Shown here in pieces: positions 3,126 through 51,939 of a stretch of DNA of 64,000 bases. Position 1 is the stretch's first letter, and each line of letters starts with the position of its first letter. The stretch spans positions 212,104 to 276,103 of the forward strand of contig CACYWP010000001.1 in the NCBI GenBank assembly GCA_902778135.1. The letters are read 5' to 3'. Origin of the DNA: an uncultured Coriobacteriaceae bacterium (lineage in GTDB: Bacteria; Actinomycetota; Coriobacteriia; Coriobacteriales; Atopobiaceae). Below the pieces are notes generated by a model. That model was given only the letters and a program-made list of their open reading frames with translations. It had not been told where the DNA came from and did no database searches. The position numbers were made by a program, and so were the translations under genes.

Positions 3126-4507
3126 GCTTTATCACGTCGTTCCTCTCGGCAGTGTTCTGGGGACTGCTGGTGCTGTCCCTGCTGGTCGGCGCGCACGAGG
3201 GCGGGCACTTCCTGGCCGCCCGCGCCTTCGGCATGCGCGTGACGGAGTTCTTCCTGGGGCTGCCGTTCCGCTACCACCTGTCGACGAAGTCCCCCCGCTA
3301 TGGCACCGAGTTCGGCGTCACGCCCATCCTGCTGGGCGGGTACAACCGCATCTGCGGCATGGAGGGCAACCTCGACGACCTGCTGGCTCCGGCGCTGGGC
3401 ATCGTGCAGCGCGAGGGTCGCGTCCTGGCCAGCGACTTGGCTCGCGAGCTGGGGATAGAGGAGGATCGCGCCTACGACATCCTGGCGGTCCTGGCCGACA
3501 TGGGCTCCATCAGGCCCTACTTCGACCCCGAGCGCGGCGAGCACCCCTGGCAGTCGGACTATCCCGCGGCCTTCGAGACACTGCGCCGCGACGCGGGCAT
3601 GCTGACCGAGTACGATGCGGGCCACGACTTCGCCAGCTCCGGGACGACCGATGCCGGCGCGCCGCGTCCCGTCTCGGATGCCGATGCGTTCCTGGCGGAC
3701 GAGACCACCCACACCTATCGCGGCAAGGGCTTCCTTGCGCGGCTGGTCACGCTGGCTGCCGGGCCCGCCGTCAACATCGCCCTGGCATTCGTGCTGGTGG
3801 TGGGGTCGCTGATGACCTCCGGCGTCGAGGTCAACGCGAACTCGAACGTGTTGGGTGACGTGGCGGAGGACTCGTATGCCCAGGCCGCGGGCCTGCAGGC
3901 GGGCGACCGCATCCTCCAGGTCGGTGACCAGACGGTCACCTCATGGGTCACGCTCTGCGAGGCCATCGACCGCAGCCTCGAGGCGGGCGGCAACATCAGG
4001 ATCGCCTACGAGCGCGACAGCGCGACCTACGAGACGACCGTCATCATCCCCGAGGGCCAGAAGGTCGATGCGATCGGCGTGATCGCCCTCATGGAGACCT
4101 ACCGTCCCACCTTCCCCGAGGCGATGTCGGTCGCCGTGTCCTACGTGACGCTGGTCGCGCGCACCGTCGCGCGCATCATCATGCCCCAGCACACCCTGGA
4201 GGTCGTCAGCCAGTCGTCGTCGATCGTGGGCATCTCCGCCATGGCGTCCGAGGCCGCTGCCTCGGGCATCGCCGACCTGGTCCTGCTCGCGGCCGCCGTG
4301 TCGCTGTCGCTGGGCTTCATGAACCTGCTGCCCATCCCGCCCCTCGACGGTGGCAAGATTCTGCTGGAGATCATCCAGCTAATCACCCGCAAGCCGATCT
4401 CGGCACGCACCGAGAGCGCGGTCAGCTACCTTGGCCTGGCGTTCTTCCTGTTCATCTTCTGCTTTGCGGTGCGCAACGACATCGTGCGCCTGCTGGGCAT
4501 CGGCTGA
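3122..4507 (+). CDS. rseP: M50 site-2 zinc metalloprotease with PDZ-like insert (RseP/Rip1-like)
   Basis: HEGGHFLAARAFG (HExxH) sits in the first TM region. There is an internal PDZ-like segment (AAGLQAGDRILQVGDQ) and a C-terminal NLLPIPPLDGG motif. The start overlaps the dxr stop. Confidence 0.85.
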   Translation: MSFITSFLSAVFWGLLVLSLLVGAHEGGHFLAARAFGMRVTEFFLGLPFRYHLSTKSPRYGTEFGVTPILLGGYNRICGMEGNLDDLLAPALGIVQREGRVLASDLARELGIEEDRAYDILAVLADMGSIRPYFDPERGEHPWQSDYPAAFETLRRDAGMLTEYDAGHDFASSGTTDAGAPRPVSDADAFLADETTHTYRGKGFLARLVTLAAGPAVNIALAFVLVVGSLMTSGVEVNANSNVLGDVAEDSYAQAAGLQAGDRILQVGDQTVTSWVTLCEAIDRSLEAGGNIRIAYERDSATYETTVIIPEGQKVDAIGVIALMETYRPTFPEAMSVAVSYVTLVARTVARIIMPQHTLEVVSQSSSIVGISAMASEAAASGIADLVLLAAAVSLSLGFMNLLPIPPLDGGKILLEIIQLITRKPISARTESAVSYLGLAFFLFIFCFAVRNDIVRLLGIG

Positions 4508-4520
4508 GGGGGCGATACCC

Positions 4521-5615
4521 ATGAGCAACGACAGTCCTTCGGTCGTCGCCAAAGCTGCGCGCGACGCGACCAGGCGGGTCATGGTCGGGTCCGTCGCCAT
4601 CGGTGGGGGAGCGCCGGTCAGCGTCCAGTCCATGTGCAACACCAAGACGGCGGACGCGGAGGCGACGCTCGCGCAGATCCGCCAGCTGGCCCAGGCTGGC
4701 TGCGAGATCATTCGCGTGACGGTGCCCGACAAGGCGTCGCTCGACCCCTTCGGGCGCATCTGCGCCGAGTCCCCGCTGCCGGTCGTGGCCGACATCCACT
4801 TCGACCACAGGCTGGCCATCGGCGCGGCGCGGCACGGGGCCGCGGCCATGCGCATCAATCCCGGCAACATCGGCTCGTTCGACCGTGTGGACGAGGTCAT
4901 CGACGCGGCGGGAGAGGAGGGCTGCGCCATCCGCATCGGCGTCAACGCCGGCTCGCTGGACCCCGCCGTGGGGGAGCGCACCGACCTCACGCTGCCCGAG
5001 AAGCTCGTCGCCTCGTCGGTCTCCTTCGTCGAGCACTTCGAGCGCCGCGGCTTCTCCGACATCGTGCTGTCCGCAAAGGCACACTCCGTGCCGGTGACGC
5101 TGGAGACCTACCGCGCGCTCTCGCGCGAGCTGCCCGACATCCCGCTGCACCTGGGGGTCACCGAGGCCGGCACCCTGCGCCAGGGCACGGTGAAGAACTC
5201 GGTCGGCGTGGGAATCCTGCTGGCCGAGGGCATCGGCAACACCATCCGCCTGTCGCTGACGGCCGACCCCGTCGAGGAGGTCGACGTCGCCTGGGACCTG
5301 CTCTCGTCGTTGGGCATGCGTCGCCTGCATCCGGAGCTCGTCAGCTGCCCGACCTGCGGGCGGACCCAGGTCGACCTGATAGGCCTGGCCGAGCAGGTCT
5401 CCTCGCGCCTCTCGCGCACCAACGCGCCCATCAGCGTCGCCGTGATGGGCTGCGTGGTCAACGGGCCGGGCGAGGCTCGCGATGCGGACATCGGCATCGC
5501 CTGCGGCAAGGGCCAGGGGCTGCTCTTCGCCAACGGCGAGCCCATCCGCAAGGTGCGCGAGGACGAGATGGTCGACGAGCTGTTCGCCGAGATCGAGCGG
5601 CGGTTTGGCGTGTAG
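4521..5615 (+). CDS. ispG: 4-hydroxy-3-methylbut-2-en-1-yl diphosphate synthase
   Basis: Contains VSVQSMCNTKT, RINPGNIG and C-terminal Fe-S cysteines (SCPTCGRT, GCVVNGPGE). The ATG at 4521 is preceded by GAGGGGG. Confidence 0.9.
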   Translation: MSNDSPSVVAKAARDATRRVMVGSVAIGGGAPVSVQSMCNTKTADAEATLAQIRQLAQAGCEIIRVTVPDKASLDPFGRICAESPLPVVADIHFDHRLAIGAARHGAAAMRINPGNIGSFDRVDEVIDAAGEEGCAIRIGVNAGSLDPAVGERTDLTLPEKLVASSVSFVEHFERRGFSDIVLSAKAHSVPVTLETYRALSRELPDIPLHLGVTEAGTLRQGTVKNSVGVGILLAEGIGNTIRLSLTADPVEEVDVAWDLLSSLGMRRLHPELVSCPTCGRTQVDLIGLAEQVSSRLSRTNAPISVAVMGCVVNGPGEARDADIGIACGKGQGLLFANGEPIRKVREDEMVDELFAEIERRFGV

Positions 5616-5685
5616 GCTCCCATACCGGGCAGACGAAGGCGCATTCCACGCAGAACATGCGCGCGGTGACGCGTGCGGAAAGGAT

Positions 5686-7404
5686 ATGGCACCCATGAAG
5701 CACTATATGAAGATGTCCCAGCTCTACGCCCCCACGCTGAAGGAGGACCCGGCCGAGGCGGAGCTGGCCAGCCACAAGCTGCTGCTGCGCGCCGGCATGA
5801 TCCGCAAGACGGCAGCCGGCCTCTACAGCTACCTTCCGCTGGCATGGCGCTCGCTGCTGAAGATCGAGGCCGTCATCCGCGAGGAGATGGAGGCCATCGG
5901 CGCCCAGGAGATCCAGGTGCCGATGATCGTGCCGGGCGAGATCTGGCAGGAGTCCGGCCGCTGGGACGTCTATGGCCCCGAGCTGCTGCGTCTCAAGGAC
6001 CGTCACGGCCGCGACTTCGTCGTGGGCCCCACGCACGAGGAGACCTTCGTCGACCTCGTCCGCAACGAGCTGCGCTCCTACAAGCAGCTGCCCGTCACGA
6101 TCTACCAGATCCAGGACAAGTTCCGCGACGAGATGCGCCCCCGCTTCGGCCTCATGCGCGGCCGCGAGTTCATCATGAAGGACGCCTACTCCTTCGACGC
6201 GACCGTCGAGGGGATGCAGCGCAGCTACGATGACGAGAAGGCTGCCTACGCGCGCATATGCGAGCGGTGCGGGCTGCGCGCCCTGCCGGTCGTCGCCGAC
6301 TCCGGCCAGATCGGTGGGGACACCTCGGTGGAGTACATGGCCCTGGCGGATGCCGGCGAGGCCGAGCTGGTCTGGTGTGACTGCAACTATGCCGCCGACG
6401 TCGAGGCCGCCTGCGTGGGCATCGCCGTCGACGAGGGCCCGGCAGGTGACTGCGAGCGCATCGAGACCCCGTGCGAGGGGACGATCGCCTCGCTGGCCGC
6501 CTTCCTCGGCGTCACCGAGCGCGCCTGCCGCAAGAGCTTTGCCATCATCGCCGAGGACGAGACTCCCGTGCTCTGCCTGCTGCCGGGCGACCACGAGCTG
6601 AACGAGGTCAAGGCCGAGCATGCCTTCGGCCACTACGACGTGATGAGCGAGGAGCAGATGGCCGAGTATGGCCTGGTGAAGGGCTACATGGGCCCCGTCG
6701 GCGCAGACGAGCGCGTGCGCATCGTGGCCGATGTCTCCCTGCGCGACACGCAGAGCTGGCTCATCGGTGCCAACGAGGCGGGCTATCACATCAAGGGCGC
6801 CCGTCCGGGTCGCGACTTCGAGGTCGACGAGTGGCTGGACCTGGCCTCCGCCAGGGAGGGCGACGCCTGCCCGCATTGCGGCAAGCCCCTGCATGCCGCC
6901 CGCGGCATCGAGGTCTCCCAGGTCTTCCAGCTGGGCACCAAGTACTCCGAGGCCATGGGGGCCACCTTCATGGACGAGGACGGCGTCGAGAAGCCCTTCC
7001 AGATGGGCTGCTATGGCATCGGCGTCAGCCGCACCCTGGCCGCCGTCGTCGAGCAGCACCACGATGATCAGGGCATCATCTGGCCGGTCTGCGTCGCACC
7101 CTACGAGGTGGAGATCGTGCCGCTCGACGCCAAGGGCGAGGTCTGGGACGCGGCCAGCCGCGTCGCCGACGAGCTGGTCGGGCTTGGCATCGAGGTCGTC
7201 GTGGACGACCGCAAGGAGCGTCCCGGCGTCAAGTTCAACGATGCCGACCTGATGGGCTTCCCGTACCAGGTCGTCTGCGGCAGGCGTGGCGTGAAGAACG
7301 GGACCGTCGAGGTCAAGGAGCGCGCCACCGGCGAGCGCACCGACGTCGCGATCGACGAGGTCGCCGCCTACCTGGCGGAGAGGGTCGTCTCCGAGCGCCT
7401 CTAG
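5686..7404 (+). CDS. proS: Prolyl-tRNA synthetase (bacterial type with editing insertion)
   Basis: Class II aaRS motifs (RPRFGLMRGREFIMKDAYSF, GCYGIGVSR), a long insertion domain and a C-terminal anticodon-binding domain. In-frame ATGs within about 30 nt downstream are alternative starts. Confidence 0.9.
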   Translation: MAPMKHYMKMSQLYAPTLKEDPAEAELASHKLLLRAGMIRKTAAGLYSYLPLAWRSLLKIEAVIREEMEAIGAQEIQVPMIVPGEIWQESGRWDVYGPELLRLKDRHGRDFVVGPTHEETFVDLVRNELRSYKQLPVTIYQIQDKFRDEMRPRFGLMRGREFIMKDAYSFDATVEGMQRSYDDEKAAYARICERCGLRALPVVADSGQIGGDTSVEYMALADAGEAELVWCDCNYAADVEAACVGIAVDEGPAGDCERIETPCEGTIASLAAFLGVTERACRKSFAIIAEDETPVLCLLPGDHELNEVKAEHAFGHYDVMSEEQMAEYGLVKGYMGPVGADERVRIVADVSLRDTQSWLIGANEAGYHIKGARPGRDFEVDEWLDLASAREGDACPHCGKPLHAARGIEVSQVFQLGTKYSEAMGATFMDEDGVEKPFQMGCYGIGVSRTLAAVVEQHHDDQGIIWPVCVAPYEVEIVPLDAKGEVWDAASRVADELVGLGIEVVVDDRKERPGVKFNDADLMGFPYQVVCGRRGVKNGTVEVKERATGERTDVAIDEVAAYLAERVVSERL

Positions 7405-7552
7405 CGGCCGTCACATAGGGACGAGGTCACGGCGCCCTGCCCGCCTACGCTTGGCGGTCAGGGCGCTGCCATCTGTCGCGCATAGGTCCACCGAGGCGGT
7501 CACGGCGAGTAGCATCGCAGGTAGAAGCCCTCAACGTGGGAAGGGAGCAACG

Positions 7553-8230
7553 ATGAGCTACCTGTACCTGTGTCCCATCTGCCTGGTCATCGCCGCGGTC
7601 TTCATTGCCATCGAGAAGATGGGGATGTACCTGGTCGCCGATGTCATCAAGGGAGTGGCGTCGGCCTTCTTCGTCGCGTTGGGAATCCTGAGCGCCTTGA
7701 TGTGCAACGATCCCGACCATGCGCGCATGGTCGTGGTGGGCCTCGTCCTGGGGATGGTGGCCGACGTACTGCTCAACCTGCGCTACGTCTACGAGGGCAG
7801 CAAGGCCAAGATCGCCTTCCTCACGGGCATCCTCGTCTTTCTGGGCGGGCACGTCTGCTACATCATCGCATGCCTGCGCTTCTGCGCATGGCCGGTGGTG
7901 GCGACGGTGCTGGGCGTCGCGTTGGCGGCGGCACTGCTGTGGTGGATATTCGCGCATGTCGAGGCCCAGGTCGCCTTCAAGGTCTTCGGCGTGTTCTACA
8001 TCGGTGCCATCACGGTGCTCAACTGCGTGGTGCTGATGGCGCTGATTGCCGACCCCAGCCAGCACTGGCTGATGTTCTTCGCAGGCACGCTGCTGTTCCT
8101 GGTGAGCGACGTCATACTCATCCTCAACACCTTCGGGCCGCGGCAGAGCTTCGTGATGCGCGTCTCGAACCTCATGCTCTACTACGTCGGCCAGTTGCTC
8201 ATCGCACTGTGCCTGCAGCTGCCGCTCTGA
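7553..8230 (+). CDS. YhhN-family (lysoplasmalogenase-like) membrane protein
   Basis: About 225 aa and all hydrophobic helices. Two acidic-motif helices (GLVLGMVADVLL and LLFLVSDVILIL) are typical of YhhN/TMEM86. The family call is from memory of the motif pattern. Confidence 0.6.
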   Translation: MSYLYLCPICLVIAAVFIAIEKMGMYLVADVIKGVASAFFVALGILSALMCNDPDHARMVVVGLVLGMVADVLLNLRYVYEGSKAKIAFLTGILVFLGGHVCYIIACLRFCAWPVVATVLGVALAAALLWWIFAHVEAQVAFKVFGVFYIGAITVLNCVVLMALIADPSQHWLMFFAGTLLFLVSDVILILNTFGPRQSFVMRVSNLMLYYVGQLLIALCLQLPL

Positions 8231-8406
8231 AAGCGGCAGGTCTGCCGCAGACCGATTCGTTTGCCCCGCTTGTGGGTCAGAACGGGTTTCCGGATTGCGT
8301 TGATGGTCTGAAGTGCGCGTGTTGACTTGCGTCTTTGGGCCTCATGCCCGCCCGTCGATGCCATAATGGAAAAGCTTGCACCCCTAGGGCAAAGGAGCGT
8401 TACGCC

Positions 8407-9837
8407 ATGGGCGATGACCTGCTTGAGCAGATAAACCAATCCATCGAGTACAACGAGTTGCTCGATGATGACGTTGCATTCGACGACTCGGTGAGCGATG
8501 CCGACGCCGCCATAGAGTCCCTGCGCACCGAAGACACCATGGACATCGGCAACACGTCCGACTTCGTGACCTACGAGGCCGTCGCGCCCGTGGCCGTCGA
8601 CCCCGAGCTGGACGGCTTCCACGTCTATGGCATCGGTGGCGGCGGCCTGGCCTCGGCCAGCCCCTTCATCGAGGAGGACGAGGCTCCCCAGACGTTCGAC
8701 GAAGTCGAGGAGGAGCAGCCCCAGGACGAGGAAGAGAACGACAAGTCGGCCGTCGTGGGACGCGTCATCGCGGGCGTCGCCGGCCTTGCGCTGGTCGCCT
8801 CCATCGGCGTGTTCGCGCTGCCCCGCATCCTGGGGGGACATGACAGCGAGCCTGTGGCCGAACAGCCCCAGCCCGAGCCCGAGCCCGAGCCGGAGGAGCC
8901 TCAGGAAGAGCCGAAGGAGAAGGTCAAGATCGTCACCGCCGACCTGAACGCCTCCAAGATCGTGGCGCTCATCGGGACGCTGCCCTCCGTCGATGACGAA
9001 TTCCTGTCCCTGGTCGCCTCCGAAGTCGACGTGCAGGTGCGTGACGGCAGGGTGCTGGTGACCCACACGGTCCCCGACGGTGTCGTGGTCGACGCCGACT
9101 CCCTGGCCCACATGGCGGGCCTGCGCTCCAACCGCCTTGCTGCCCTGCTGACCGGCAAGACGGTCGGCCAGGGCCCCGACGAGGAGGGCGCCCCGTTCAA
9201 AGACCTGACGTGGGTCGTGCGCAACGCGGCCGGCGAAGCCTACCTGGCAACGGTCGAGGGTCCCGGCGAGGATCGCGAGACGGGCAAGCGCTATGGCATC
9301 ATAGCTGGCTCGAGGGGCTATGTCCTCTCTCCGACGATGGTCGAGCTGCTGGGCTCGGACTCCGGTCTCGAGGAGAAGGCGGGGGAGGTCCCAACCGACC
9401 TGGACGGTAACGAGATCGCGGCGCTGGCAATCGTGACCTTGGCAAAGGCGCCGGCTCCGAGCGACAAACAGACCGCTCCGCGACAGACCCAGACCCAGAC
9501 GACCACCAACCGGACCACCACGCCTGTCGTGACGAACGACTACAGCTACGACTACTCCTATGACGACGGCGGCGACTCCTCGGGTGGCTACAGCGCGCCC
9601 TCGACCCCGTCGACGCCCTCGACGCCGAGCACGCCCTCGACCCCGTCGACCCCCTCGACGCCGAGCACGCCCTCGACCCCGTCGACCCCGTCGACGCCCT
9701 CGACGCCGAGCACGCCCTCGACCCCGAGCACGCCCTCGACCGATACGCCGGTCGACGACTCCGGCAGCGGATCCGACTTCGTCGACGATGGCGGCGGCTC
9801 GGGTGCCGTCGACGACTCCGGCAGCGGCGGCGAGTAG
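8407..9837 (+). CDS. Hypothetical single-pass membrane protein with acidic N-terminus and C-terminal (STP)n repeat
   Basis: AAGGAG lies 11 nt upstream of the ATG at 8407. There is one hydrophobic span (VIAGVAGLALVASIGVFALP), codon usage is GC3-rich, and the tail holds 15 STP units. No recognisable enzymatic motif. Confidence 0.6.
   Translation: MGDDLLEQINQSIEYNELLDDDVAFDDSVSDADAAIESLRTEDTMDIGNTSDFVTYEAVAPVAVDPELDGFHVYGIGGGGLASASPFIEEDEAPQTFDEVEEEQPQDEEENDKSAVVGRVIAGVAGLALVASIGVFALPRILGGHDSEPVAEQPQPEPEPEPEEPQEEPKEKVKIVTADLNASKIVALIGTLPSVDDEFLSLVASEVDVQVRDGRVLVTHTVPDGVVVDADSLAHMAGLRSNRLAALLTGKTVGQGPDEEGAPFKDLTWVVRNAAGEAYLATVEGPGEDRETGKRYGIIAGSRGYVLSPTMVELLGSDSGLEEKAGEVPTDLDGNEIAALAIVTLAKAPAPSDKQTAPRQTQTQTTTNRTTTPVVTNDYSYDYSYDDGGDSSGGYSAPSTPSTPSTPSTPSTPSTPSTPSTPSTPSTPSTPSTPSTPSTPSTPSTDTPVDDSGSGSDFVDDGGGSGAVDDSGSGGE
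9601..9741 (+). repeat. Coding tandem repeat: 15 x 9-bp (Ser-Thr-Pro) units with 36-bp higher-order periodicity
   Basis: Read directly: tcgaccccg/tcgacgccc/tcgacgccg/agcacgccc blocks recur three times with small variations. Confidence 0.9.
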
Positions 9838-9985
9838 CGTCCGCGCCATGGCATGAGACGCAAGGGGTGGCAGGCCGAAAGGTCGCCACCCCTTTCGATT
9901 CGCCAGCCGACCAGCCGGAATGTCGCGCCTGTCTGCGGGCTGGGGGTGACGGCGAAGCAATTTCCAAAAAAGTTGAGATTGTCGC

Positions 9986-10013
9986 TTGACCGTGGCCGTG
10001 ACTTTGGTAATAT
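9986..10013 (+). promoter_or_regulatory. Candidate sigma70-type promoter for the tRNA cluster
   Basis: TTGACC (9986-9991), a 16-nt spacer, then TAATAT (10008-10013), about 20 nt upstream of tRNA-Ala. Pattern match only. Confidence 0.4.
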
Positions 10014-10032
10014 ACCTCTTGCACCAACCCAC

Positions 10033-10108
10033 GGGGAATTAGCTCAGCTGGGAGAGCGCATGACTGGCAGTCATGAGGTCAGGGGTTCGATCCCCCTATT
10101 CTCCACCA
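10033..10108 (+). tRNA. tRNA-Ala (anticodon GGC)
   Basis: A cloverleaf was folded by hand: acceptor GGGGAAT/ATTCTCC with the G3:U70 alanine identity pair, anticodon loop CTGGCAG, T-loop TTCGATC, encoded CCA. Confidence 0.9.
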
Positions 10109-10118
10109 GAAACTAGAG

Positions 10119-10144
10119 GGCGGCGGCTTCGGCCGTCGCCTTTT
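10119..10144 (+). terminator. Rho-independent terminator-like hairpin
   Basis: GGCGGCGGC-TTCG-GCCGTCGCC (9 bp with one G-U, a tetraloop) followed by TTTT. Confidence 0.6.
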
Positions 10145-10150
10145 CAGTAA

Positions 10151-10226
10151 GGGCCTATGGCGCAACGGTTAGCGCAGGGGACTCATAATCCCTGGGTTGG
10201 GGGTTCGAATCCCTCTGGGCCCACCA
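10151..10226 (+). tRNA. tRNA with CAT anticodon (elongator Met, or Ile2 if lysidine-modified)
   Basis: Acceptor GGGCCTA/TGGGCCC, anticodon loop CTCATAA, T-loop TTCGAAT, encoded CCA. The G1:C72 pair argues against an initiator tRNA. Confidence 0.85.
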
Positions 10227-10292
10227 GAATGCAGCGAGGTCAGGTGCATAGGCGCCTGGCCTCTATTCGTATCTCGTAGAATCGAGGATAAG

Positions 10293-10673
10293 ATGACTGG
10301 TGACGGCAAGCTTCTCAAGATCTCGTGTCTGACCGCGCTCTTCGTGGGCTTGGGAACTCTCGTCCTAGGGGTCGTGCTTGCCTTGGGCAACCTGGCGGAT
10401 CTGGATGCGTGGGCCACGGCCGCCGAGGGCCTTGGGTCGGCCGTGTTCGGTGTCCGCAGCGCGATTCTGGCCAACGTCCCGTCGAACACCTCCAAGATTC
10501 GCGGCAAGTCCGTCGCCCTGATGCTGCTGGCTGCAGTCACGCTGGGCTATCTCGTCTACAGCGGCGCGGCGGTCCAGGTCGCGCAGCTCTGCCTGGCGGC
10601 CGTTGTCGCCATCGTCGCGGTCGTTGCCTTCGTGCTCGCCAGCAAGATCGTGAGGGATCAGTTGCGCAGGTAG
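10293..10673 (+). CDS. Hypothetical small membrane protein (126 aa) between tRNA genes
   Basis: Three to four hydrophobic helices and GC3-rich codon usage consistent with the neighbours. No recognisable motif. The upstream part of the track ORF overlaps the tRNA. Confidence 0.5.
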   Translation: MTGDGKLLKISCLTALFVGLGTLVLGVVLALGNLADLDAWATAAEGLGSAVFGVRSAILANVPSNTSKIRGKSVALMLLAAVTLGYLVYSGAAVQVAQLCLAAVVAIVAVVAFVLASKIVRDQLRR

Positions 10674-10845
10674 GCCCTGGTGCGTGCGCCGTGTCGACAT
10701 TTGCGGGTCAGGGGGGCGGGCGTGGTGTCCGGGCCCTCATCTGCCTGCGCGTGACGCCCGGCATCCCACTTTCTTCACGAGTTTCGGAAAAGAGGGATTC
10801 TCGCGCACATCGGACGGGGATATCTGCTAAGATTCCTTCTGCTAC

Positions 10846-10920
10846 GGGCGATTGGCTCAGGGGTAGAGCACATCCTTCACACGGATGGGGTCGCTGGTTC
10901 GAATCCAGCATCGCCCACCA
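10846..10920 (+). tRNA. tRNA-Val (anticodon CAC)
   Basis: Acceptor GGGCGAT/ATCGCCC, anticodon loop TTCACAC, T-loop TTCGAAT, encoded CCA. Confidence 0.9.
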
Positions 10921-10929
10921 GAAAACACG

Positions 10930-10959
10930 AGGTCAGAGGCTATGTTCTCTGGCCTTTTT
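10930..10959 (+). terminator. Rho-independent terminator after tRNA-Val
   Basis: The GGTCAGAG...CTCTGGCC stem is followed by TTTTT. Confidence 0.6.
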
Positions 10960-11182
10960 CTTTTGCGCAAAGGCCTCCGCTGGTTTGTACAAAATGTGCA
11001 CCCAATTCGGCCCCCAGCTTGTGCCAAATCGCGAATCGCCGAGCGGTTTGGCCACTTGCGGTCTCCCTACTGCTACGATGGTCAAAGCCCACCATGTTCC
11101 GGTTGGGCCCGGGTCGCGAAAGTGGACGGCTCGGACCGCTGAAGAGACGTCAGCCCGGGCGAACCAGAAAGGAAACAGCACC

Positions 11183-11377
11183 ATGAACTTCGAAGACCTG
11201 ACCCCCGAACAGCAGCGGAAGGCCCGTGCCTGCAAGACGCCCGAGGAGCTGCTCATGCTGGCCCGCGAGGAGGGGTACGAGCTCAACGAGGACGAGCTCG
11301 CCGCCCTCTCTGGCGGTGTGAGCTGGGACTGCATCTCGGACTGCCCCGATCACACGCCCTGCCCTTCGGACCGCTAG
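11183..11377 (+). CDS. Small precursor-like peptide (64 aa) with Nif11-like double-glycine leader
   Basis: MNFEDLTPEQQRKARACKTPEELLMLAREEGYELNEDELAALSGG | VSWDCISDCPDHTPCPSDR. AAAGGA lies upstream of the ATG. These are the last 64 codons of a spurious 350-aa track ORF that runs across tRNA-Val. Confidence 0.6.
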   Translation: MNFEDLTPEQQRKARACKTPEELLMLAREEGYELNEDELAALSGGVSWDCISDCPDHTPCPSDR

Positions 11378-11509
11378 CACGACCGGCACGGAACGCGTCA
11401 TGCACGTGTCCCCGGATGCGACGAATCGGGACCGGGGCGGCGTGAGGCAAGTGCTACCATCCAAAAGACAAGGCCTGTGCGCCTCGGACCGCAGACGGAA
11501 GGACGAACC

Positions 11510-11696
11510 ATGAATCTTGCCGATCTGACCCCGAACAGCAGGAGAAGGCCCGCGCCTGCGAGACGCCCGAGGAGATGCTCGCCCTTGCCAAGGAAGAGGG
11601 CTTCGAGCTTTCCGACGAGGACCTTGAGGCGGTATCAGGCGGTAACGCTTGGGATAAAGCCGTTGACGAATACATGAAGTGCCTGAGATTCGGCTG
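11510..11696 (+). pseudogene. Frameshifted paralog of the Nif11-like GG-leader peptide gene
   Basis: GGAAGGA RBS plus ATG gives MNLADLTP. After a 1-nt deficit near 11533 the other frame reads QQEKARACETPEEMLALAKEEGFELSDEDLEAVSGG | NAWDKAVDEYMKCLRFG*. This is collinear with the 11183 gene. Confidence 0.55.
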
Positions 11697-11778
11697 ACGG
11701 CTTCCGACGTCAGCTCGGAGGGCCTTTCGGTTGAATCCGGGTCGCGAACGTGACCCTCCTTCAACCGAAACCCAACCA

Positions 11779-11930
11779 TTCGACCATCTGGGACGGTTCT
11801 CCACGGTCGAAAGTGGCGAAGACAGCCAGCCTCTCGGGTGATGGGGCGACACGGTGACAGGACGCTGTCACGCATGCAGCCCGCATCAGGCACAGAGTTC
11901 GACCGTGGAGAACCGTCCCAGACGGTCGAA
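11779..11930. repeat. Inverted pair of ~33-bp self-complementary hairpin units
   Basis: 11779-11812 (ttcgaccatctgggacggttctccacggtcgaa) is the reverse complement of 11898-11930 with one mismatch. Each unit is itself a TTCGACCGT...ACGGTCGAA hairpin. Confidence 0.75.
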
Positions 11931-11992
11931 CGACGCACGCCCAAGAAGTGGGGCAGGCCCCCCGGAGACCTGCCCACCGTGGAATCGCACGA

Positions 11993-12020
11993 GGCCAGAG
12001 ATTGCTTCTCTGGCCTTTTT
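11993..12020 (+). terminator. Terminator hairpin closely resembling the tRNA-Val terminator
   Basis: GGCCAGAG-attgctt-CTCTGGCC followed by TTTTT. Preceded by tgcccacc, which resembles the tRNA-Val 3' end. Confidence 0.5.
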
Positions 12021-12165
12021 CTCTGCGTGCGGCGAACGCCTGTGCCTGTACCGTGCCCGGCAGTTCCTTTGCCAAACGGATGGCGCGCATCTGGGCAAGC
12101 GCTATCATCAGTTCGTCAGGTTCCCCATGGAAAGCGAGCCACCCTTGGCAATCAACAGGTCCTCC

Positions 12166-38808: not shown

Positions 38809-41800
38809 ATGGAACAACGTCGTGTACCATCTTGCTTGCTCATCATCTCGTTTGTCGTCGCGCTGATGCACCTCACACTCCTCCCGCTGGTCGCCCATGC
38901 GGACGAGATTGACGACATGCTTGCAGTCGGCAGCTACGCCGAGGGCGAGGTCATCGCGGCGTTCTTTCCCCAAAGCGGCCAGCTCGCGGCACAGTCCGAG
39001 GCGCCTTACGAGGTCACGCCGCTCATGAGGGTAGGCGCGTCGACAACCCAGGCAGGCGACGGCATGCTGATGGCGCAATCCGAGGAAGGCCTGACGCTCT
39101 CGTCCGTCACCTCCGCCACCCTCACGACCGAGGAGCTCCTGCGCCTGCTGTCCGAAGACGCAAGCGTCGCGTTCGTCGAGCCCAACTACACCTACTCGCT
39201 CGAGGACGCAGATCCGAGCAACCCCGCATCTGACGGCAGCCTGTCACCACAAGTGGATGCCACCACCGTCGGCGACCTGAAACCGATACAGTGGGCCAAC
39301 TGGACGACCGACCAGACGCTGCGTACGGATGCGTTTACAGCCAACCCGTCCGTCAACGTACCCAACTTCGGGTCGTCCCAGCGCGGCGCGAACATGAGCA
39401 AACCAATCGTAGTGGCACTAATCGACTCGGCCGTCGACAACCAGCACCCCGACCTGGCCAACGTCTTGTACCACTTCTCCCCCGAGCAGCGGGACGCGCT
39501 TGGCTGCTACGATCTGGGCTACAAGGCGGGGAACAAGGGAGCCATGGGAAACTACTACGACCCGGAATCCGTGGAAATCGGGCACGGCACGCACACGGCA
39601 GGCATCATCGGGGCGGAGTGGAACGACTTTGGCACCAGCGGCGTCGCGTCAGACGTGCGCATCGTGTCGATTGACTTCGCAAGTGAGGGTAAGGTCGTGT
39701 CGACTGCGGACGCCATCTGCGCCTTCGGGTTTGTCGACCGATTCAACGAGCAGGCATCTGAGGACGATCGCATTCGGATCACCAGCAACTCGTGGGGCGC
39801 CATGCAGTCGACTCGCGCCGTTGATGCGGCCGTTCGCAAGCTGGGGGAAACGTGGAACGTCGTCAGCGTCTTCTCCTCAGGCAACGACGGCAGGAACAAC
39901 GACCACTACGAGCGGGCCAACTCGTATGTCGAGGACAACCCCTATGCCGTCATCGTCGCAAACTCGAATGGAGCCGAAACCCTGGACCCCAGCAGCGAGT
40001 ACGGTACCGCCAGCGTGGACCTGGCGGCACCCGGGACGCTCATCCTGTCGACCATGGCCAAGACGGACATGCACTCGCAGTACCTTGCCGATGTGACCCG
40101 CTCGTTCGACCCTCTCTACGTGGGATTCGACGGCGACCCCGAGCCCCCAGTGACCGTCTCCCAGCTCTACCAGGACGGCAACCCCAGCATCTCGCAGGAT
40201 AACAACGTCGTGGTGGACAGCGTGGGGGAAGTGGTGAACAACGTCCATGCCTACGGATCGGGTGGCCTCAGAATCGACGTCGACCCATCGTATGCCCTCG
40301 GCACGAGCACAAGTGATAAGACCGATCACTACGATCTGAAGTTCGACATCGATTTGACGGGCACGGACATCGCCGACAGGTTGGAGGGACTCGAGGGCCT
40401 TCACCTCGGGTTTATGTTTGCGGGCGGCACGGATTCGGCCAACGCAATGGTCTGGTCGCTCGCCACGAACCTCGCGAACATCGAGTTCCCCCTTGGCTTG
40501 TACCCGACGGGACGCACCGAATGGCTCTCCTTCGACAAGGTCATCACCGAGCTAGGGGCAAACGACAAAGCCATCGAGGGAGAGGAGGCCCCAACGGGAG
40601 CGGCCCTACGTCCCGAAGGCGACCACCTCGTGATCAAGATTCGCGTTGCGCTTCCCAAGGGCAGCACCACGTGCTATATTGACTCGCTGGGTCTGGGAAC
40701 GCAGGTCGCGCCGTACGGCTTCAAGTCGGGCACGTCCATGGCCACGCCACTCGTGGCGGGAGCCGGAGCCGTGCTCGCCTCGCAGGGACATGAGGGTACC
40801 GAGCTCGCGTCGCTGCTGCGCTCGAAGGTGCGCGTTCCCGATCCCGCGCTCGAGGTGAAGACCGGCGGCATCTTCGACTTTCTCGCTGACGGCTCGACCG
40901 AAACCACAGGTTCGCACGCTCTTGGCCCCGACATCACCGGCGTGAACGTCGACGGCACGACCGTGACCATAACGGGTGCCAACTTTGGTGCGGATCCGGT
41001 ATCCGTGAAACTCGCCCGCTACGTGGTAGGCGCCGAGGACCAGCCGGTTGCCGCAACGGTTGCGTCGTGGTCCGACAACGAGGTGGTGCTCTCGCTTGAT
41101 GCACCGTTCGAGGGGATCCTGCGCGCCGTGCTCACCAACGCCGCCAGCAAGTGGGACACGCAGTATGTCTTTGTGAGCAAGGGGGCGAGCGTCTACGAGC
41201 AGGACCTGCCCTTCGATGCCTCCGTCGGCAACGCCTTCGTCTACGGCGACGGCCTAGGTGACTGGGAGACCAAGGGGCCGCTCGTTGGCTTGGGCTGCAA
41301 GCTGTACTACCTGCCCGGCTATGCGGGATACGACGAGCTTGTGCCAGGCTACAACAGGATGCTCTGCTTCGACCTCAAGAAGCAGACGTGGTCGGAGCTT
41401 CCCGCGTTGCCCGAATGGCTGAGCGGCGTCTCTGCGGTCATGCACGAAGGCAAGATCGTTGTTGAGGGCGCCAGCATGTACGCGCTGGAGAACGGTGAGC
41501 ATGCGGCGTCGTTCCCCGCGGGCGAGTCCGCCGAGGAGCGCGTGTACGTGTACGACCCCACGGCCGGCTCGTGGACAAAGGCGTCCTCGAACGGGATGCA
41601 CCTGGACCAGACCATCGTCAATGACGGCGGCAAGCTCAAGCTGGCGGGAGGCTCCATGCCCGACCCAGAGCATCCCGAGCAGCCGGGAAGAACGGTGCCG
41701 GCGCCGGTGACGAGCTACGACCTCTCGTCGGGTGCGGGTGACGAGCTGTGCGCCCTGCCCCTCGCGCTGCCCAATCCCCAGGTGGCGGCGCATGACGGCA

Positions 41801-44836: not shown

Positions 44837-45554
44837 GCGCCGTCATCTCCAGGAAGATCTGCTCGAGGCTTGTGTTCGGATGGGCTGCCTTGAGTTCATC
44901 CAGCGTGCCGTCGAAGAGCTTGTGTCCGTGCGCGATAATGCACACGGCGTCGCACAGTTGGTCGGCGGTCTCGAGTACGTGGGTGGAGAAGAGCACCGAG
45001 TTGCCAGCGGCAGCGTGCTCGCGCATCATTTCCTTCAGCTCGTAGGCACCCTTCGGATCGAGGCCGGTCATCGGCTCGTCCAGGATCCAGACGCTCGGCT
45101 CGTGTATGAGCGCGCCCATAACGTGAACCTTCTGGCGCATGCCATGGGAGTAGTCGCTAATGCGGCTACCCAGGGCATCATAGATTTCAAAGCGCTTCGC
45201 GTAGTCTTCGATGAAGGATGCTCGGCCCTCTGCGGGCGTGCCGTAGACATCCGCCATGAAGTTCAGGTACTCGATGCCCGTAAGGCGTAAAAAGCGGTCC
45301 GGGTCATCGGGCACGTAGCCAAACTGTCGTTTGGCCTCGATGTCGTCGGTAGCAATATCGTGTCCGTTGATGCGAATCGAACCCTCGTCTATGGAGTGCA
45401 CGCCACAGATCATCTTGAGCGTGGTGGACTTTCCCGCTCCGTTAGGGCCGAAGAAACCGGTGATCTTTCCATCTTCGACCGTCCAGGTGAGGTCGTCGAC
45501 GGCCCTCACGTCCTTGCCCGCGTACGTTTTGGACACGTGACTGAGCTCTATCAT
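44829..45554 (-). CDS. ABC transporter ATP-binding protein (ABC-2/DrrA-like single NBD)
   Basis: Walker [11 protein letters not shown], signature YSHGMRQK, Walker B VWILDEPMTGLD. The ATG at 45554 has AAGGAG 6 nt upstream; the TTG at 45581 in the track is less likely. Confidence 0.9.
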   Translation of the reverse strand: MIELSHVSKTYAGKDVRAVDDLTWTVEDGKITGFFGPNGAGKSTTLKMICGVHSIDEGSIRINGHDIATDDIEAKRQFGYVPDDPDRFLRLTGIEYLNFMADVYGTPAEGRASFIEDYAKRFEIYDALGSRISDYSHGMRQKVHVMGALIHEPSVWILDEPMTGLDPKGAYELKEMMREHAAAGNSVLFSTHVLETADQLCDAVCIIAHGHKLFDGTLDELKAAHPNTSLEQIFLEMTAHE

Positions 45555-45576
45555 GGGCCACTCCTTTGAGTCATCT

Positions 45577-45589
45577 TGCAATCATTGCA
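45577..45589. promoter_or_regulatory. Palindrome TGCAAT-C-ATTGCA in the divergent ABC / GG-peptide intergenic region
   Basis: A perfect 6+1+6 palindrome about 25 nt upstream of the ABC ATPase start. It is a candidate operator, based on pattern only. Confidence 0.35.
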
Positions 45590-48693: not shown

Positions 48694-48768
<75 letters not shown>

Positions 48769-48770
<2 letters not shown>

Positions 48771-50844: not shown

Positions 50845-51474
50845 TCAACCGAAGCTCCTCAGCTCCTGCGGAGCGAGCCTCCTGCCCATGACCTCGTCTA
50901 TCGTCATGGCGGCCGCCCGCTTGGCGTCCGCGTCAGCGCTTGCGTAGATGTTGAGCGTCATCGCCGCGTTTGCATGGCCCATGATCGAGCTCACGGTCTT
51001 GACGTCGATTCCCTCGGCGATTGCGAAGGTGTGACGGAGGTCGTGGAAGGTCGGCCTCCTGCCTTGCGTTCCCACGAGGCCCATCGAGTCTGCGAGCGCC
51101 TTCCAAGGCCTCCAGAGCCCATGCGGCTTCATGAACGAGCCGTCCACCTCACCGAGGACGTAGATCTGGGACATGCGCTCCTCCGAGGGCTCGAGGCCCG
51201 CGACGATGAGCTCAGTCTCCTGAGCGTCCTTCCTTGCTTTCAGCTTCTCCGCGAGGGCGAGCGTGAGGGGGATGTCGCGCACGCTCGTATGCGTCTTGGG
51301 AGGCTTGACGTAGTACTTTCCGTTATCGCGTGCCACAGACCTCCTCACCCAGAGGGTGCGCTTCTTGAGGTCCACATCGGCCCACCTAAGGCCGCAGAGC
51401 TCGCCCTCTCGCATGCCGGTGGAGAGCGCCATGAGGACGGCGAGGTTGAAGGGCGTGTCCGCGGCTGCGTCGAG
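50845..51474 (-). pseudogene. Tyrosine recombinase catalytic-domain fragment truncated by direct-repeat copy 2
   Basis: Contains LSTGMREGELCGLRWADVD (R), FHDLRHTFA (HxxR) and MGHANAAMTLNIY (H...Y). The frame stays open upstream (LLDAAADTPFNLAVL) until it runs into the repeat at 51475. No N-terminal SAM/arm-binding domains. Confidence 0.8.
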
Positions 51475-51549: not shown

Positions 51550-51680
51550 ATGGTATGGGACAAAACGACTTTGCAAGCTGATAGTTCCATCGGTACCGTT
51601 TGGAATAGGTCATAGCGTGAGACGGAACCCTTGACGGTTTCGTTATAAGGAAAACGACACCTTACGACGAGATAGTCAAG

Positions 51681-51939
51681 ATGGAATTCCGAGTTGCGAA
51701 CGAAGAGCTGAAAGCCCAGTTGGAGAGCTGCAACGGCCCCGATGACATCCTGGCCCTCGCCAAGGAGGAGGGCTACGAGCTCACGGACGAGGACCTCGAG
51801 GCAGTATCCGGCGGCGATTTCTGGGGTCCTGACACGACGACCGTCACGTGCCCCGCGTGTGGTAAGACGTTCTCGAACCCCCCATCGCTACACGACCATG
51901 CCCTGCCCCAACTGCGGCGCCTATCTCGTTCAGGCGTAA
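51681..51939 (+). pseudogene. Third Nif11-like GG-leader peptide gene; core encodes a CPxCG...CPxCG zinc-ribbon-like peptide if a C6 run is read as C5
   Basis: MEFRVANEELKAQLESCNGPDDILALAKEEGYELTDEDLEAVSGG | DFWGPDTTTVTCPACGKTFSNP. The other frame after the C-run at 51878-51883 reads HRYTTMPCPNCGAYLVQA*. As written, the frame runs 351 aa, antisense through the next gene. Confidence 0.5.

What the first reader, a model, noticed from the sequence alone, without database searches (positions are those of the whole stretch)
11183..11696. Family of small peptides with a shared Nif11-like double-glycine leader and a conserved Trp at core position +3, with no maturation or export genes in view
Seen: three loci (11183, 11510 and 51681) encode leaders with the shared pattern C-x-(T/G)-P-(E/D)(E/D)-x-L-x-LA(K/R)EEG(Y/F)EL-x-(D/E)(D/E)(D/E)L(E/A)A(V/L)SGG. 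Their cores are unrelated (VSWDCISDCPDHTPCPSDR, NAWDKAVDEYMKCLRFG, DFWGPDTTTVTCPACG...), but all have Trp at +3 followed by Asp or Gly. Established: Nif11-type leaders ending in GG precede diverse RiPP cores and are cleaved by C39-peptidase ABC exporters. Hypervariable cores behind a conserved leader are the signature of combinatorial RiPP families. Inference: this is a RiPP-like or secreted-peptide family whose processing machinery, if any, lies elsewhere in the genome. No LanM, radical-SAM maturase or PCAT gene occurs within this 64 kb.
Basis: partly seen in the sequence, partly recalled or inferred. Interest (0 to 1): 0.65.

Follow-up and report, generated by a model that had tools for sequence, protein, structure and literature searches.

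The report
Scattered leader-peptide genes with tryptophan mark
Three small genes (one intact, two broken by single-base slips) belong to a large, unstudied family of exported-peptide precursors in rumen Coriobacteriia; this is a known kind of system, unusual for a strongly conserved tryptophan just after the cleavage site, and in related genomes its export pump and a modifying enzyme are encoded at other loci.

Summary
The shared Nif11-type double-glycine leader is real at all three loci (Pfam PF07862 above threshold). Only pep1 (11183-11377) is intact. Pep2 lacks one C in a C-run and pep3 has one extra C; intact orthologues of 62 and 85 aa show both are frameshifts.

The genes belong to a large family (more than 270 database clusters) in ruminant-gut Coriobacteriia MAGs. 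There are several copies per genome, mostly without neighbouring maturation or export genes. The leader is conserved and the cores are hypervariable.

The Trp is a family signature. It lies within +1..+5 in 93% of 233 non-redundant cores and at +3 in 47%, against 1.9% W further in. At least one Cys occurs in 97%.

The window holds no PCAT, LanM or RiPP-type rSAM. In related genomes the family sits next to a two-subunit NHLP-type exporter (C39 peptidase ABC1, TIGR03796, plus ABC2, TIGR03797). That exporter lies in an ECF-sigma and partner-switching operon. In a few loci a radical SAM/SPASM maturase is adjacent.

A shared promoter-like motif links scattered peptide genes, including pep3, to the sigma/exporter operon.

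Verdict: a new variant of a known kind. Whether this genome has the machinery could not be tested.

The parts
11183..11377 (+). pep1: intact 64-aa precursor. Leader 11183-11317 (45 aa, ends SGG), core 11318-11374 (VSWDCISDCPDHTPCPSDR), stop 11375-11377.
   Evidence: ORF and translation. PF07862 at E 2.3e-7. About 30 64-aa orthologues with the same core. Core 90% vs leader 74% mean identity.
11510..11697 (+). pep2: tandem paralogue of pep1 and a frameshifted pseudogene. One C is missing in the run 11529-11532. The corrected product is MNLADLTPEQQEKARACETPEEMLALAKEEGFELSDEDLEAVSGG|NAWDKAVDEYMKCLRFG. As it stands, only a 40-aa ORF from ATG 11575 is in frame.
   Evidence: DNA alignment with pep1 shows a single-base gap. 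Intact orthologues P0112 (62 aa) and P0108-P0115. The same frameshift is present in L008 and L009.
51681..51939 (+). pep3: frameshifted pseudogene of an 85-aa precursor whose core resembles a zinc ribbon (CPACG...CPNCG). There is one extra C in the run 51878-51883. The ancestral stop is TAA 51937-51939, followed by the hairpin GGGCGG-GT-CCGCCC (51944-51957).
   Evidence: Sequence and frames. Intact orthologue P0105 (85 aa), more distant P0106 and P0107.
51619..51649 (+). Family promoter-like motif GAGACGGAACCCTTGACGGTTTCGTTATAAG (GrGACG, 16-19 nt, TAnAAk), 31 nt upstream of the pep3 ATG.
   Evidence: Motif alignment. 23 of 37 relaxed-pattern hits in 757 kb lie upstream of family peptide genes. 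In the window, this is the only hit upstream of a peptide gene.
10846..10920 (+). tRNA-Val, immediately upstream of the pep1-pep2 block.
   Evidence: ARAGORN and Rfam.
10929..10966 (+). Terminator-like hairpin after tRNA-Val; left copy of a duplicated element that brackets the 1.06-kb pep1-pep2 block.
   Evidence: (repeat D4).
11991..12027 (+). Right copy of the duplicated terminator-like hairpin, downstream of pep2.
50845..51432 (-). Truncated tyrosine recombinase (catalytic domain only), next to pep3 in an island that starts at tRNA-Pro (48694-48770).
   Evidence: PF00589; tRNA; GC dip.

Best explanation
These are precursor genes of small secreted peptides, bacteriocin-like or RiPP, of a Coriobacteriia-specific branch of the Nif11-leader family.

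Proposed mechanism:
- The 45-residue leader carries the classical PCAT recognition helix, L(-12)xxxE(-8)L(-7)xx[VL](-4)xGG.
- The leader delivers the peptide to an exporter encoded elsewhere in the genome. The exporter has two subunits of the NHLP type: ABC1 with a C39 peptidase domain, and ABC2.
- The exporter cuts after GG and exports a 15-40-residue core. The core is rich in Cys and Asp and starts with x(0-3)-Trp.
- The genes are scattered singly or in small groups in variable regions, here beside tRNA-Val and in a tRNA-Pro island. They are gained, duplicated and lost quickly.
- Many share a promoter-like motif with the operon that encodes an ECF sigma factor and the exporter. The scattered genes therefore probably form one regulon.
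- A radical SAM/SPASM enzyme modifies at least some family members, probably by Cys thioether cross-links.

In this window pep1 is intact and could be made. Pep2 and pep3 are recent pseudogenes.

Shown: family membership, the frameshifts, the Trp/Cys signature, co-location with exporter and maturase in relatives, and the shared motif.
Inferred: cleavage and export, the regulon, the chemistry, and the presence of the machinery in this genome.
For: - Leader identity: PF07862 and TIGR03798.
- The leader fits the published PCAT consensus Leu(-12)-X3-Glu(-8)-Leu(-7)-GG (PMC6363468; sequences).
- Family size and host range: 104 and 276 database clusters, and 54 loci in ruminant-gut Coriobacteriia MAGs with several loci per MAG.
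- Orphan arrangement.
- Exporter beside family peptides in L012/L065, L022, L030, L066 and L070. ABC1 scores 925.7 bits against TIGR03796 (cut-off 853.3) and has a Pfam Peptidase_C39 domain. ABC2 scores 703 bits against TIGR03797, just under the cut-off of 709.
- At least 120 ABC2 homologues at 66% identity or more.
- Radical SAM/SPASM gene directly next to family peptides in L013, L022 and L070. Of 80 metagenome loci holding a relative, 39 have Nif11-type peptides nearby and 11 have exporter genes (ABC1 and/or ABC2).
- Trp/Cys signature.
- Purifying selection on the pep1 core.
- The promoter-like motif is enriched upstream of peptide genes (23 hits, against roughly 0.4 by a rough estimate from the share of sequence searched). 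It also lies upstream of the sigma/exporter operon at L064 6316 and L068 6259.
- Frameshifts shown by intact orthologues.
Against: - The window has no exporter, maturase or related regulator, and the rest of this genome could not be read.
- Two of the three genes are broken, and pep1 and pep2 lack the family promoter motif. The family may be decaying in this strain.
- No expression, cleavage or export data exist for any member.
- Most family loci have no maturase nearby. Some cores look like zinc ribbons and need no modification, so 'RiPP' in the strict sense is unproven.
- PCAT proteases are generally tolerant at P' positions (PMC6363468), so this model does not explain the conserved Trp.
- The motif's -10 part (TATAAT-like) also fits a housekeeping sigma factor.
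Confidence: 0.62

Rival explanations
1. Every member is an obligately modified RiPP of a new class. The near-invariant Trp (+1..+4) and Cys are the modification sites, for example a Trp-Cys or Cys thioether cross-link. The enzyme would be the radical SAM/SPASM protein or the conserved 290-aa protein with no Pfam match. The orphan genes are substrates of that single enzyme, encoded elsewhere.
For: - W within +1..+5 in 93% of cores and Cys in 97%.
- Radical SAM/SPASM gene adjacent in L013, L022 and L070. Its nearest families are maturases of Cys-rich peptides (TIGR04463, Clo7bot, CefB, PapB, QhpD).
- The 290-aa protein sits next to WSC-type peptides in 8 loci.
Against: - The rSAM-linked peptides with divergent leaders mostly lack the Trp (5 of 25). 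W therefore tracks the leader type and not the rSAM.
- The rSAM scores far below every curated cut-off (199 vs 525 bits).
- Most loci have no maturase.
- Zinc-ribbon-like cores such as pep3 look like self-folding domains.
- None of these enzymes is in the window.
Confidence: 0.2
2. In this genome the three genes are non-functional relics. The exporter has been lost or was never present. The copies arrived with mobile or variable DNA and are decaying.
For: - Two of three are frameshifted.
- Both loci are next to tRNA genes. Pep3 sits beside a truncated integrase in a defence island.
- Pep1 and pep2 lack the family promoter.
- Similar decay is seen elsewhere: a frameshifted copy in L064 against an intact one in L065, an rSAM remnant in L051, and presence/absence differences between strains.
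Against: - Pep1 is intact with a good ribosome-binding site. Its core is 90% conserved across about 30 orthologue clusters.
- Pep3 keeps an intact family promoter.
- The exporter is widespread in this clade.
Confidence: 0.3
3. The peptides are signals, not weapons. After export they are sensed by the 5TMR-LYT/PP2C-kinase proteins encoded in the exporter locus. These act through STAS partner-switching on the ECF sigma factor, giving an autoinducing circuit.
For: - Conserved locus order: small ORF, ECF sigma, HlyD-like protein, ABC1, ABC2, STAS, SpoIIE+HATPase, 5TMR-LYT+SpoIIE+HATPase, family peptide.
- The same promoter-like motif lies on peptide genes and on the sigma operon.
Against: - The evidence is contextual only.
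- Up to about 9 or more different cores were counted in one MAG, which is more typical of bacteriocin arsenals.
- The nearby VanY/M15 peptidases suggest an envelope-stress input instead.
- None of this locus is in the window.
Confidence: 0.12
4. They are small intracellular Nif11-domain proteins that are neither cleaved nor exported.
For: The Nif11 domain also occurs in non-RiPP small proteins. Most loci have no exporter nearby.
Against: - GG or a close variant ends the leader in nearly all members.
- The leader carries the PCAT recognition pattern.
- Cores are hypervariable behind a conserved leader.
- Family peptides repeatedly sit next to the C39 ABC exporter.
Confidence: 0.04

Closest known systems
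Prochlorosin precursors (ProcA) of Prochlorococcus/Synechococcus: Nif11-leader peptides with one promiscuous LanM (ProcM) and a PCAT
   Same: Nif11-type leader ending in GG. Many precursor genes per genome with hypervariable cores, scattered away from the processing genes and often in variable regions. The processing machinery acts on genes encoded elsewhere.
   Different: No recurrent LanM-sized neighbour appeared among about 150 related loci, though LanM was not searched for directly. The cores are rich in Cys, Asp and Trp, not Ser, Thr and Cys. The host is an anaerobic gut actinobacterium. The position-specific Trp after the cleavage site is not, to my knowledge, a feature of prochlorosins. 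The linked enzyme, where present, is a radical SAM/SPASM protein.
LahA1-9/LahT of Lachnospiraceae bacterium C6A11 (PMC6363468)
   Same: Several Nif11-type GG-leader precursors with diverse cores, processed by one substrate-tolerant C39 PCAT in a gut anaerobe.
   Different: The Lah precursors are clustered with LahT, whereas these are mostly orphans. The exporter here is the two-subunit NHLP type (ABC1 plus ABC2) and lies in an ECF-sigma/partner-switching operon.
NHLP/Nif11 bacteriocin export system of Haft et al. 2010 (TIGR03796 ABC1, TIGR03797 ABC2, TIGR03794 HlyD)
   Same: In relatives, ABC1 passes the TIGR03796 cut-off and ABC2 scores just below the TIGR03797 cut-off. A short protein matches the N-terminus of TIGR03794.
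   Different: The HlyD partner is reduced to about 167 aa. The coupling to STAS, PP2C-kinase and 5TMR-LYT regulators is not part of the described system.
Radical SAM/SPASM maturases of Cys-rich peptides (TIGR04463; Clo7bot maturase; CefB; PapB ranthipeptide maturase; QhpD)
   Same: The linked enzyme has the CxxxCxxC motif and a SPASM domain (CX2CX5CX3C). Its best matches are these families, and its neighbours are Cys-containing GG-leader peptides.
   Different: All scores are far below the curated cut-offs (199 vs 525 bits for the best), so it is a separate subfamily with untested chemistry. It is absent from the window.
Class II bacteriocin and pheromone double-glycine leaders (TIGR01847, ComC/BlpC type)
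   Same: The last 13 leader residues (ELSDEELEAVSGG) follow the classical LSxxELxxIxGG pattern.
   Different: The leader is three times longer and is a Nif11 domain. TIGR01847 scores are below its cut-off (13.3-13.6 vs 15.7).

Membership tests
Nif11-like leader peptide family RiPP precursor (PF07862 / TIGR03798) | N-terminal Nif11-type leader domain | tested here: met
   PF07862 is above the gathering score for all three (31.4, 33.6 and 39.2 vs 23.8 bits). TIGR03798 is above its cut-off for pep2 (frame-corrected, 34.6) and pep3 (35.7), and below it for pep1 (24.6 vs 32.3).
Nif11-like leader peptide family RiPP precursor (PF07862 / TIGR03798) | Leader ends in a double-glycine-type cleavage motif followed by a variable core | tested here: met
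   SGG ends the leader in all three window genes and in nearly all homologues. Cores are hypervariable.
Nif11-like leader peptide family RiPP precursor (PF07862 / TIGR03798) | Genomic association with a C39 ABC exporter and/or a maturase | tested here: inconclusive
   Not met inside the 64-kb window. Met for family members in related genomes. The rest of this genome could not be read.
PCAT (C39 peptidase ABC transporter) substrate | Leader recognition pattern Leu(-12)-X3-Glu(-8)-Leu(-7), hydrophobic residue at -4, Gly-Gly at -2/-1 | tested here: met
   Pep1 YEL(-12)NEDE(-8)L(-7)AAL(-4)SGG; pep2 and pep3 EL(-12)xDED(-8)L(-7)EAV(-4)SGG, with Asp in place of Glu at -8. Consensus taken from PMC6363468.
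PCAT (C39 peptidase ABC transporter) substrate | Actual cleavage after GG and export | not testable with these tools
   Needs biochemistry or peptidomics.
Radical SAM-modified thioether RiPP (ranthipeptide/sactipeptide type) | Dedicated rSAM/SPASM maturase encoded with the precursor | tested here: not met
   No homologue in the window by tblastn. An adjacent one is present only in a minority of related loci: L013, L022, L070 and a remnant in L051.
Radical SAM-modified thioether RiPP (ranthipeptide/sactipeptide type) | Cys residues in the core as cross-link donors | tested here: met
   Pep1 core has 3 Cys, pep2 has 1, pep3 has 4. 97% of family cores have at least one. Cross-links themselves were not tested.
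Lanthipeptide (prochlorosin-like, class II) | LanM synthetase in the genome neighbourhood or acting from elsewhere; Ser/Thr plus Cys cores | tested here: not met
   No LanM in the window. The recurrent large neighbours in related loci are SpoIIE-type regulators, ABC transporters, C1 peptidases and molybdopterin enzymes. Cores contain only 6% Ser and 5% Thr. Absence elsewhere in the genome was not testable.

The most novel reading that the evidence does not exclude
The invariant Trp (+1..+4) and Cys mark a new post-translational modification, or a new export or recognition rule, specific to this Coriobacteriia family. Examples would be a Trp-Cys cross-link, or an oxygen-independent Trp hydroxylation by the 290-aa protein that weakly resembles U32/UbiU. 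The scattered precursor genes would form one regulon driven by an ECF sigma factor. That sigma would be switched by a membrane-sensing PP2C-kinase/STAS partner-switching module encoded with the exporter. This way of controlling a peptide arsenal has not been described for RiPPs or bacteriocins.
Probability: 0.15. Interest if true: 0.75.

Novelty: new variant of a known kind. Interest (0 to 1): 0.5.

Why it matters
Rumen and gut Coriobacteriia are poorly studied, and no peptide natural product is known from them in the literature I could search. This family is large: hundreds of distinct cores, and about nine or more genes counted in one genome.

Cluster-based genome mining would tend to miss it, because most precursor genes stand alone.

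The position-specific Trp and the near-universal Cys give a simple rule for finding members. They also pose a concrete question: what reads that Trp?

The link between a PCAT exporter and an ECF-sigma/partner-switching module, together with a shared promoter-like motif, gives a testable model. It would explain how genes scattered round a chromosome can be co-ordinated with a single export machine.

For this window the practical message is more modest: one plausible precursor gene and two fresh pseudogenes.

Tried and rejected
- Window machinery. I scanned the large and neighbouring window proteins with Pfam and NCBIfam for PCAT, LanM and rSAM maturases. I found only an S8 peptidase with Kelch repeats, ABC-F proteins, an ABC-2-type pair and a DUF512 radical SAM; none is of RiPP type. 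A tblastn of the family-linked rSAM, ABC1, ABC2, SpoIIE-type regulator and 290-aa protein against the window gave nothing beyond generic ABC similarity.
- Sequencing error as the cause of the frameshifts. This is unlikely for pep2, because two other short-read assemblies of the strain carry the same base count. It is not excluded for pep3.
- The conserved Trp as a requirement of the rSAM. Rejected, because rSAM-linked peptides with other leaders mostly lack it.
- The 180-aa N-terminal extension of ABC2 as the peptidase. Rejected: no C39 match was found there. The C39 domain is on ABC1.
- The promoter motif as an ECF type with GAAAC as the -35 element. The spacing to CGTA is too short (10-11 nt). 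GrGAC as the -35 element gives 15-16 nt, so the sigma assignment remains an inference.
- Literature searches for Nif11 peptides in Coriobacteriia or the rumen found nothing specific.
- The 290-aa neighbour protein has no Pfam or PDB match, only a non-significant UbiU hit.
- Rfam found nothing meaningful in the long hairpin downstream of pep2.
- Synteny between L001 and the window by blastn/tblastx was uninformative.
- An exact-match look-up of the window protein 52074-52580 found no record.

Full report
**What is in the window**

At 11183-11377 there is an intact 64-codon ORF, pep1: MNFEDLTPEQQRKARACKTPEELLMLAREEGYELNEDELAALSGG|VSWDCISDCPDHTPCPSDR. It has an AGGA-type ribosome-binding site.

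A paralogue, pep2, starts 327 nt downstream at ATG 11510. Its leader DNA is about 76-80% identical to that of pep1. It has CCCC (11529-11532) where pep1 has CCCCC, so the first seven codons are out of frame with the rest. With one C restored it reads MNLADLTPEQQEKARACETPEEMLALAKEEGFELSDEDLEAVSGG|NAWDKAVDEYMKCLRFG.

The third gene, pep3, starts at 51681. As written it has no stop for 351 codons and runs antisense through a well-supported gene at 52074-52580. The +1 frame ends ...MPCPNCGAYLVQA* at 51939 and is followed by a GC hairpin.

All three leaders match Pfam Nif11 (PF07862) above the gathering score. Two pass the TIGR03798 cut-off. A leader HMM built from the family finds exactly these three sites in the window.

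**The two frameshifts are real features of the family history**

A profile search with the two corrected sequences returned intact orthologues.
- P0105 (85 aa) is ...SGG|DFWGPDTTTVTCPACGKTFSNLHCYTTMPCPNCGAYLVPA. It matches pep3 across the junction. The window therefore has one extra C in the run 51878-51883.
- P0112 (62 aa) is ...SGG|NAWDEVVNEYMKCERFG and matches pep2.

The pep2 region is 100% identical, frameshift included, in an ENA contig of 295 kb (L008) and in a Logan assembly (L009). A homopolymer sequencing error is therefore unlikely for pep2. For pep3 I could not make the same check.

Only pep1 is intact. Its core is under purifying selection: across 30 orthologue clusters the core is 90% identical on average and the leader 74%.

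**The family**

Pep1 alone retrieves 104 database clusters, and the pep2/pep3 profile retrieves 276. A scan of one genome per species found 54 loci. Almost all are in MAGs of Eggerthellaceae, Atopobiaceae, Coriobacteriaceae, Olsenella and Denitrobacterium from ruminant guts, with several loci per MAG. I counted up to about nine or more genes in one MAG.

NCBI and JGI already label some members 'Nif11-like leader peptide family natural product precursor'. The kind is therefore known. I found no paper dealing with it in Coriobacteriia or the rumen.

The leader consensus is MNFEDLTPEQQEKARACKTPEEiLALAKEEGYELSDEELEAVSGG. Its last 13 residues fit the published PCAT recognition pattern Leu(-12)-X3-Glu(-8)-Leu(-7)...Gly-Gly (PMC6363468).

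**The tryptophan is a strong, position-specific family signature**

I analysed 233 non-redundant cores.
- W lies within +1..+5 in 93%.
- W lies exactly at +3 in 47%.
- Beyond +6 the W frequency is 1.9%.
- The residue after W is D (46), G (44), S (29) or C (21) in most cores.
- 97% have at least one Cys. The cores contain 11% Cys and 10% Asp.

The cores fall into subfamilies that are conserved across species.
- The pep1 type.
- The pep2 type, xxW[DG]xx[VI]Dx[IY]xxCxxxG.
- WSCSSFGERSDCHLNQWYE.
- KGKWAHEECNDFTRQGKPRKK.
- Types that look like zinc ribbons, such as pep3.

**Surroundings**

Pep1 and pep2 lie directly after tRNA-Val among housekeeping genes (uppS, cdsA, dxr, rseP, ispG and proS upstream; an ABC-F gene, scpA/B and cmk downstream). 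The 1.06-kb block is bracketed by two copies of a terminator-like hairpin. This looks like an insertion or a local duplication.

Pep3 lies in an island that starts at tRNA-Pro. The island carries an AbiE toxin-antitoxin pair, a truncated integrase, a MarR regulator, a GIY-YIG/Schlafen-type helicase and an SNF2/ASCH helicase. Its GC content is lower than that of the rest of the window.

Homologues elsewhere are likewise mostly orphans, with unrelated neighbours. Close strains differ in which copies they carry.

The window has no PCAT, LanM or RiPP-type radical SAM gene.

**Machinery in relatives**

I clustered the neighbours of about 60 loci and annotated the recurrent groups. This showed the following.
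- An ABC pair next to family peptides in L012, L022 and L030.
  - One member is TIGR03797 (703 bits; cut-off 709).
  - The other is TIGR03796.
  - Full copies reached through the ABC2 homologues have a Pfam Peptidase_C39 domain and score 925.7 bits, above the cut-off of 853.3.
- A conserved locus order: 72-aa ORF, ECF sigma, a 167-aa protein like the N-terminus of HlyD, ABC1, ABC2, STAS, SpoIIE(PP2C)+HATPase_c_2, a VanY or M15 peptidase, then 5TMR-LYT+SpoIIE+HATPase_c_2. Family peptides lie inside or beside this locus. One example is a pep2-type gene in L065.
- A radical SAM/SPASM gene directly next to family peptides in L013, L022 and L070, and a deleted remnant in L051.
  - Its best family matches are maturases of Cys-rich peptides (TIGR04463, Clo7bot, CefB, FlmE/OhkG, PapB, QhpD), all far below their cut-offs.
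  - Of 80 metagenome loci holding a relative, 39 have Nif11-type peptides nearby and 11 have exporter genes (ABC1 and/or ABC2).
  - Some relatives stand alone among housekeeping genes.
- A conserved protein of about 290 aa, with no Pfam or PDB match, next to WSC-type peptides in eight loci.

**What the Trp tracks**

Among rSAM-linked peptides, W within +1..+5 occurs in 5 of 25 with divergent leaders (under 40 bits against the family leader HMM). It occurs in 12 of 19 with more similar leaders (40 bits or more), and in 93% of the family proper. Cys is present in 40 of these 44.

The Trp therefore goes with this leader and exporter lineage, not with the rSAM.

PCAT proteases are usually tolerant at P' positions. 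The Trp is thus unexplained by the standard model. It could be a determinant for this particular exporter, a modification site, or a membrane-interface anchor of the mature peptides.

**A shared promoter-like motif**

About half of the peptide genes carry GrGACG-N16-19-(CG)TAnAAk 30-60 nt upstream of the start codon.
- With a strict pattern, 18 of 25 hits in 757 kb (both strands) lie just upstream of family peptide genes.
- With a looser pattern, 23 of 37 hits do. The looser pattern's total count is near that of shuffled sequence (mean 27). The peptide-upstream regions make up only about 1-2% of the searched space, which would give roughly 0.4 hits there by chance; this figure is my rough estimate, not a direct count.
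- The same motif precedes the 72-aa ORF/ECF-sigma/exporter operon (L064 6316, L068 6259) and a STAS-M15-peptide operon.
- In the window only pep3 has it, at 51619-51649. Pep1 and pep2 do not.

ECF sigma factors commonly drive their own operon (established knowledge). My inference, not a demonstration, is that this sigma factor co-ordinates the scattered genes with the exporter, under control of the partner-switching proteins.

**Conclusion**

It overlooked that two of the three genes are broken.

The interpretation (secreted or RiPP-like peptides served by machinery encoded elsewhere) is supported by what the family does in related genomes. It is untested for this genome.

The system is a member of the Nif11/NHLP double-glycine world with several distinctive traits:
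- the Trp/Cys signature;
- extreme scattering and turnover of the genes;
- a distinct rSAM/SPASM subfamily;
- an exporter wired to an ECF-sigma/partner-switching module.

I rate it a new variant of a known kind, of moderate interest.

Noticed in passing
L038:10197-11063, L049:10222-11163, L046:1310-2302, L039:1512-2429, L040:3794-4633, L016:4542-5432(-), L037:4997-5887: A conserved protein of about 290 aa sits directly next to WSCSSFGERSDCHLNQWYE-type and GWSC-type family peptides in eight loci from several MAGs. It has no Pfam or PDB match, only a non-significant UbiU (U32 family) hit at E 4e-4. It is a candidate new maturase or immunity protein.
   Followed up: partly
L064:6385-6603, L068:6330-6548: A 72-aa ORF heads the ECF-sigma/exporter operon. 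Its N-terminal part is conserved and ends ...LD(M/L)LSAAG, followed by a short variable tail (DLFVPGPGEPGWPF / DMSMLCHDLDNLQ). It looks like a second type of double-glycine-type substrate, possibly the cognate signal peptide.
   Followed up: no
window 11779-11811 and 11898-11930: A 33-nt inverted repeat (97% complementary, 86 nt between the arms) lies between pep2 and the second terminator copy. It occurs only once in the window and has no meaningful Rfam match.
   Followed up: partly
window 10929-10966, 11991-12027 and 51486-51518: Near-identical terminator-like hairpins (GAGGyCAGAG...TCTGGCCTTTTTCT) bracket the pep1-pep2 block. A related hairpin (GAGGTCA...TGGCCTTTTCTTTT) lies just past the 5' end of the truncated integrase ORF, upstream of pep3. 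These could be insertion or duplication scars.
   Followed up: partly
window 53885-55030; L001:10236-11390: A DUF7021/DUF2262 protein lies 2 kb downstream of pep3. It is 65% identical to the protein encoded immediately downstream (41 nt) of a pep1 orthologue in another contig. This is a possible recurrent partner, for example an immunity protein.
   Followed up: partly
window 48694-64000: An island at tRNA-Pro with lower GC (0.51-0.60). It carries an AbiEii/AbiEi toxin-antitoxin pair, a truncated tyrosine recombinase, a MarR regulator, GNAT acetyltransferases, a GIY-YIG + Schlafen-type helicase (58184-59944) and an SNF2/ResIII helicase with an ASCH domain (60207 onwards). It looks like a defence island.
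   Followed up: partly
window 38809-42519: A 1236-aa protein with a subtilase (Peptidase_S8) domain and Kelch repeats. An ABC ATPase (44829-45581) and a PF16949 membrane protein (43181-44836) lie nearby. No link to the peptides was found.
   Followed up: no
L064:18502-18854(-) versus L065:18574-18777(-): The same pep2-type peptide gene is intact in one metagenome contig and frameshifted in the leader (after ...ACKTP) in a near-identical contig. Frameshifts in the leader seem to recur in this family. This could be simple decay or on/off switching.
   Followed up: no
L051:694-1200: The rSAM/SPASM gene next to a family peptide is a remnant. An internal deletion joins the CPYC cluster motif directly to the C-terminal SPASM region.
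   Followed up: partly
L003:11747-13162: A 472-aa ORF fuses an N-terminal Nif11-like domain without a GG site to a roughly 400-aa domain. It grouped with the peptides and the 290-aa proteins in single-linkage clustering, but tblastn with the 290-aa protein did not detect it.
   Followed up: no
window 4507-11183 versus L008: Gene coordinates imply an 81-nt length difference between the window and the otherwise matching ENA contig L008, somewhere upstream of pep1. The offset is 1101 at rseP and 1182 at pep1. The window therefore comes from a slightly different strain or assembly.
   Followed up: no
L084:8001-9350: A 69%-identical relative of the rSAM/SPASM maturase stands alone among housekeeping genes (nadE, nadD, rsmA, dut) in what is evidently a different organism. 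No Nif11-type peptide lies within 8 kb, so the maturase too can be an orphan.
   Followed up: partly
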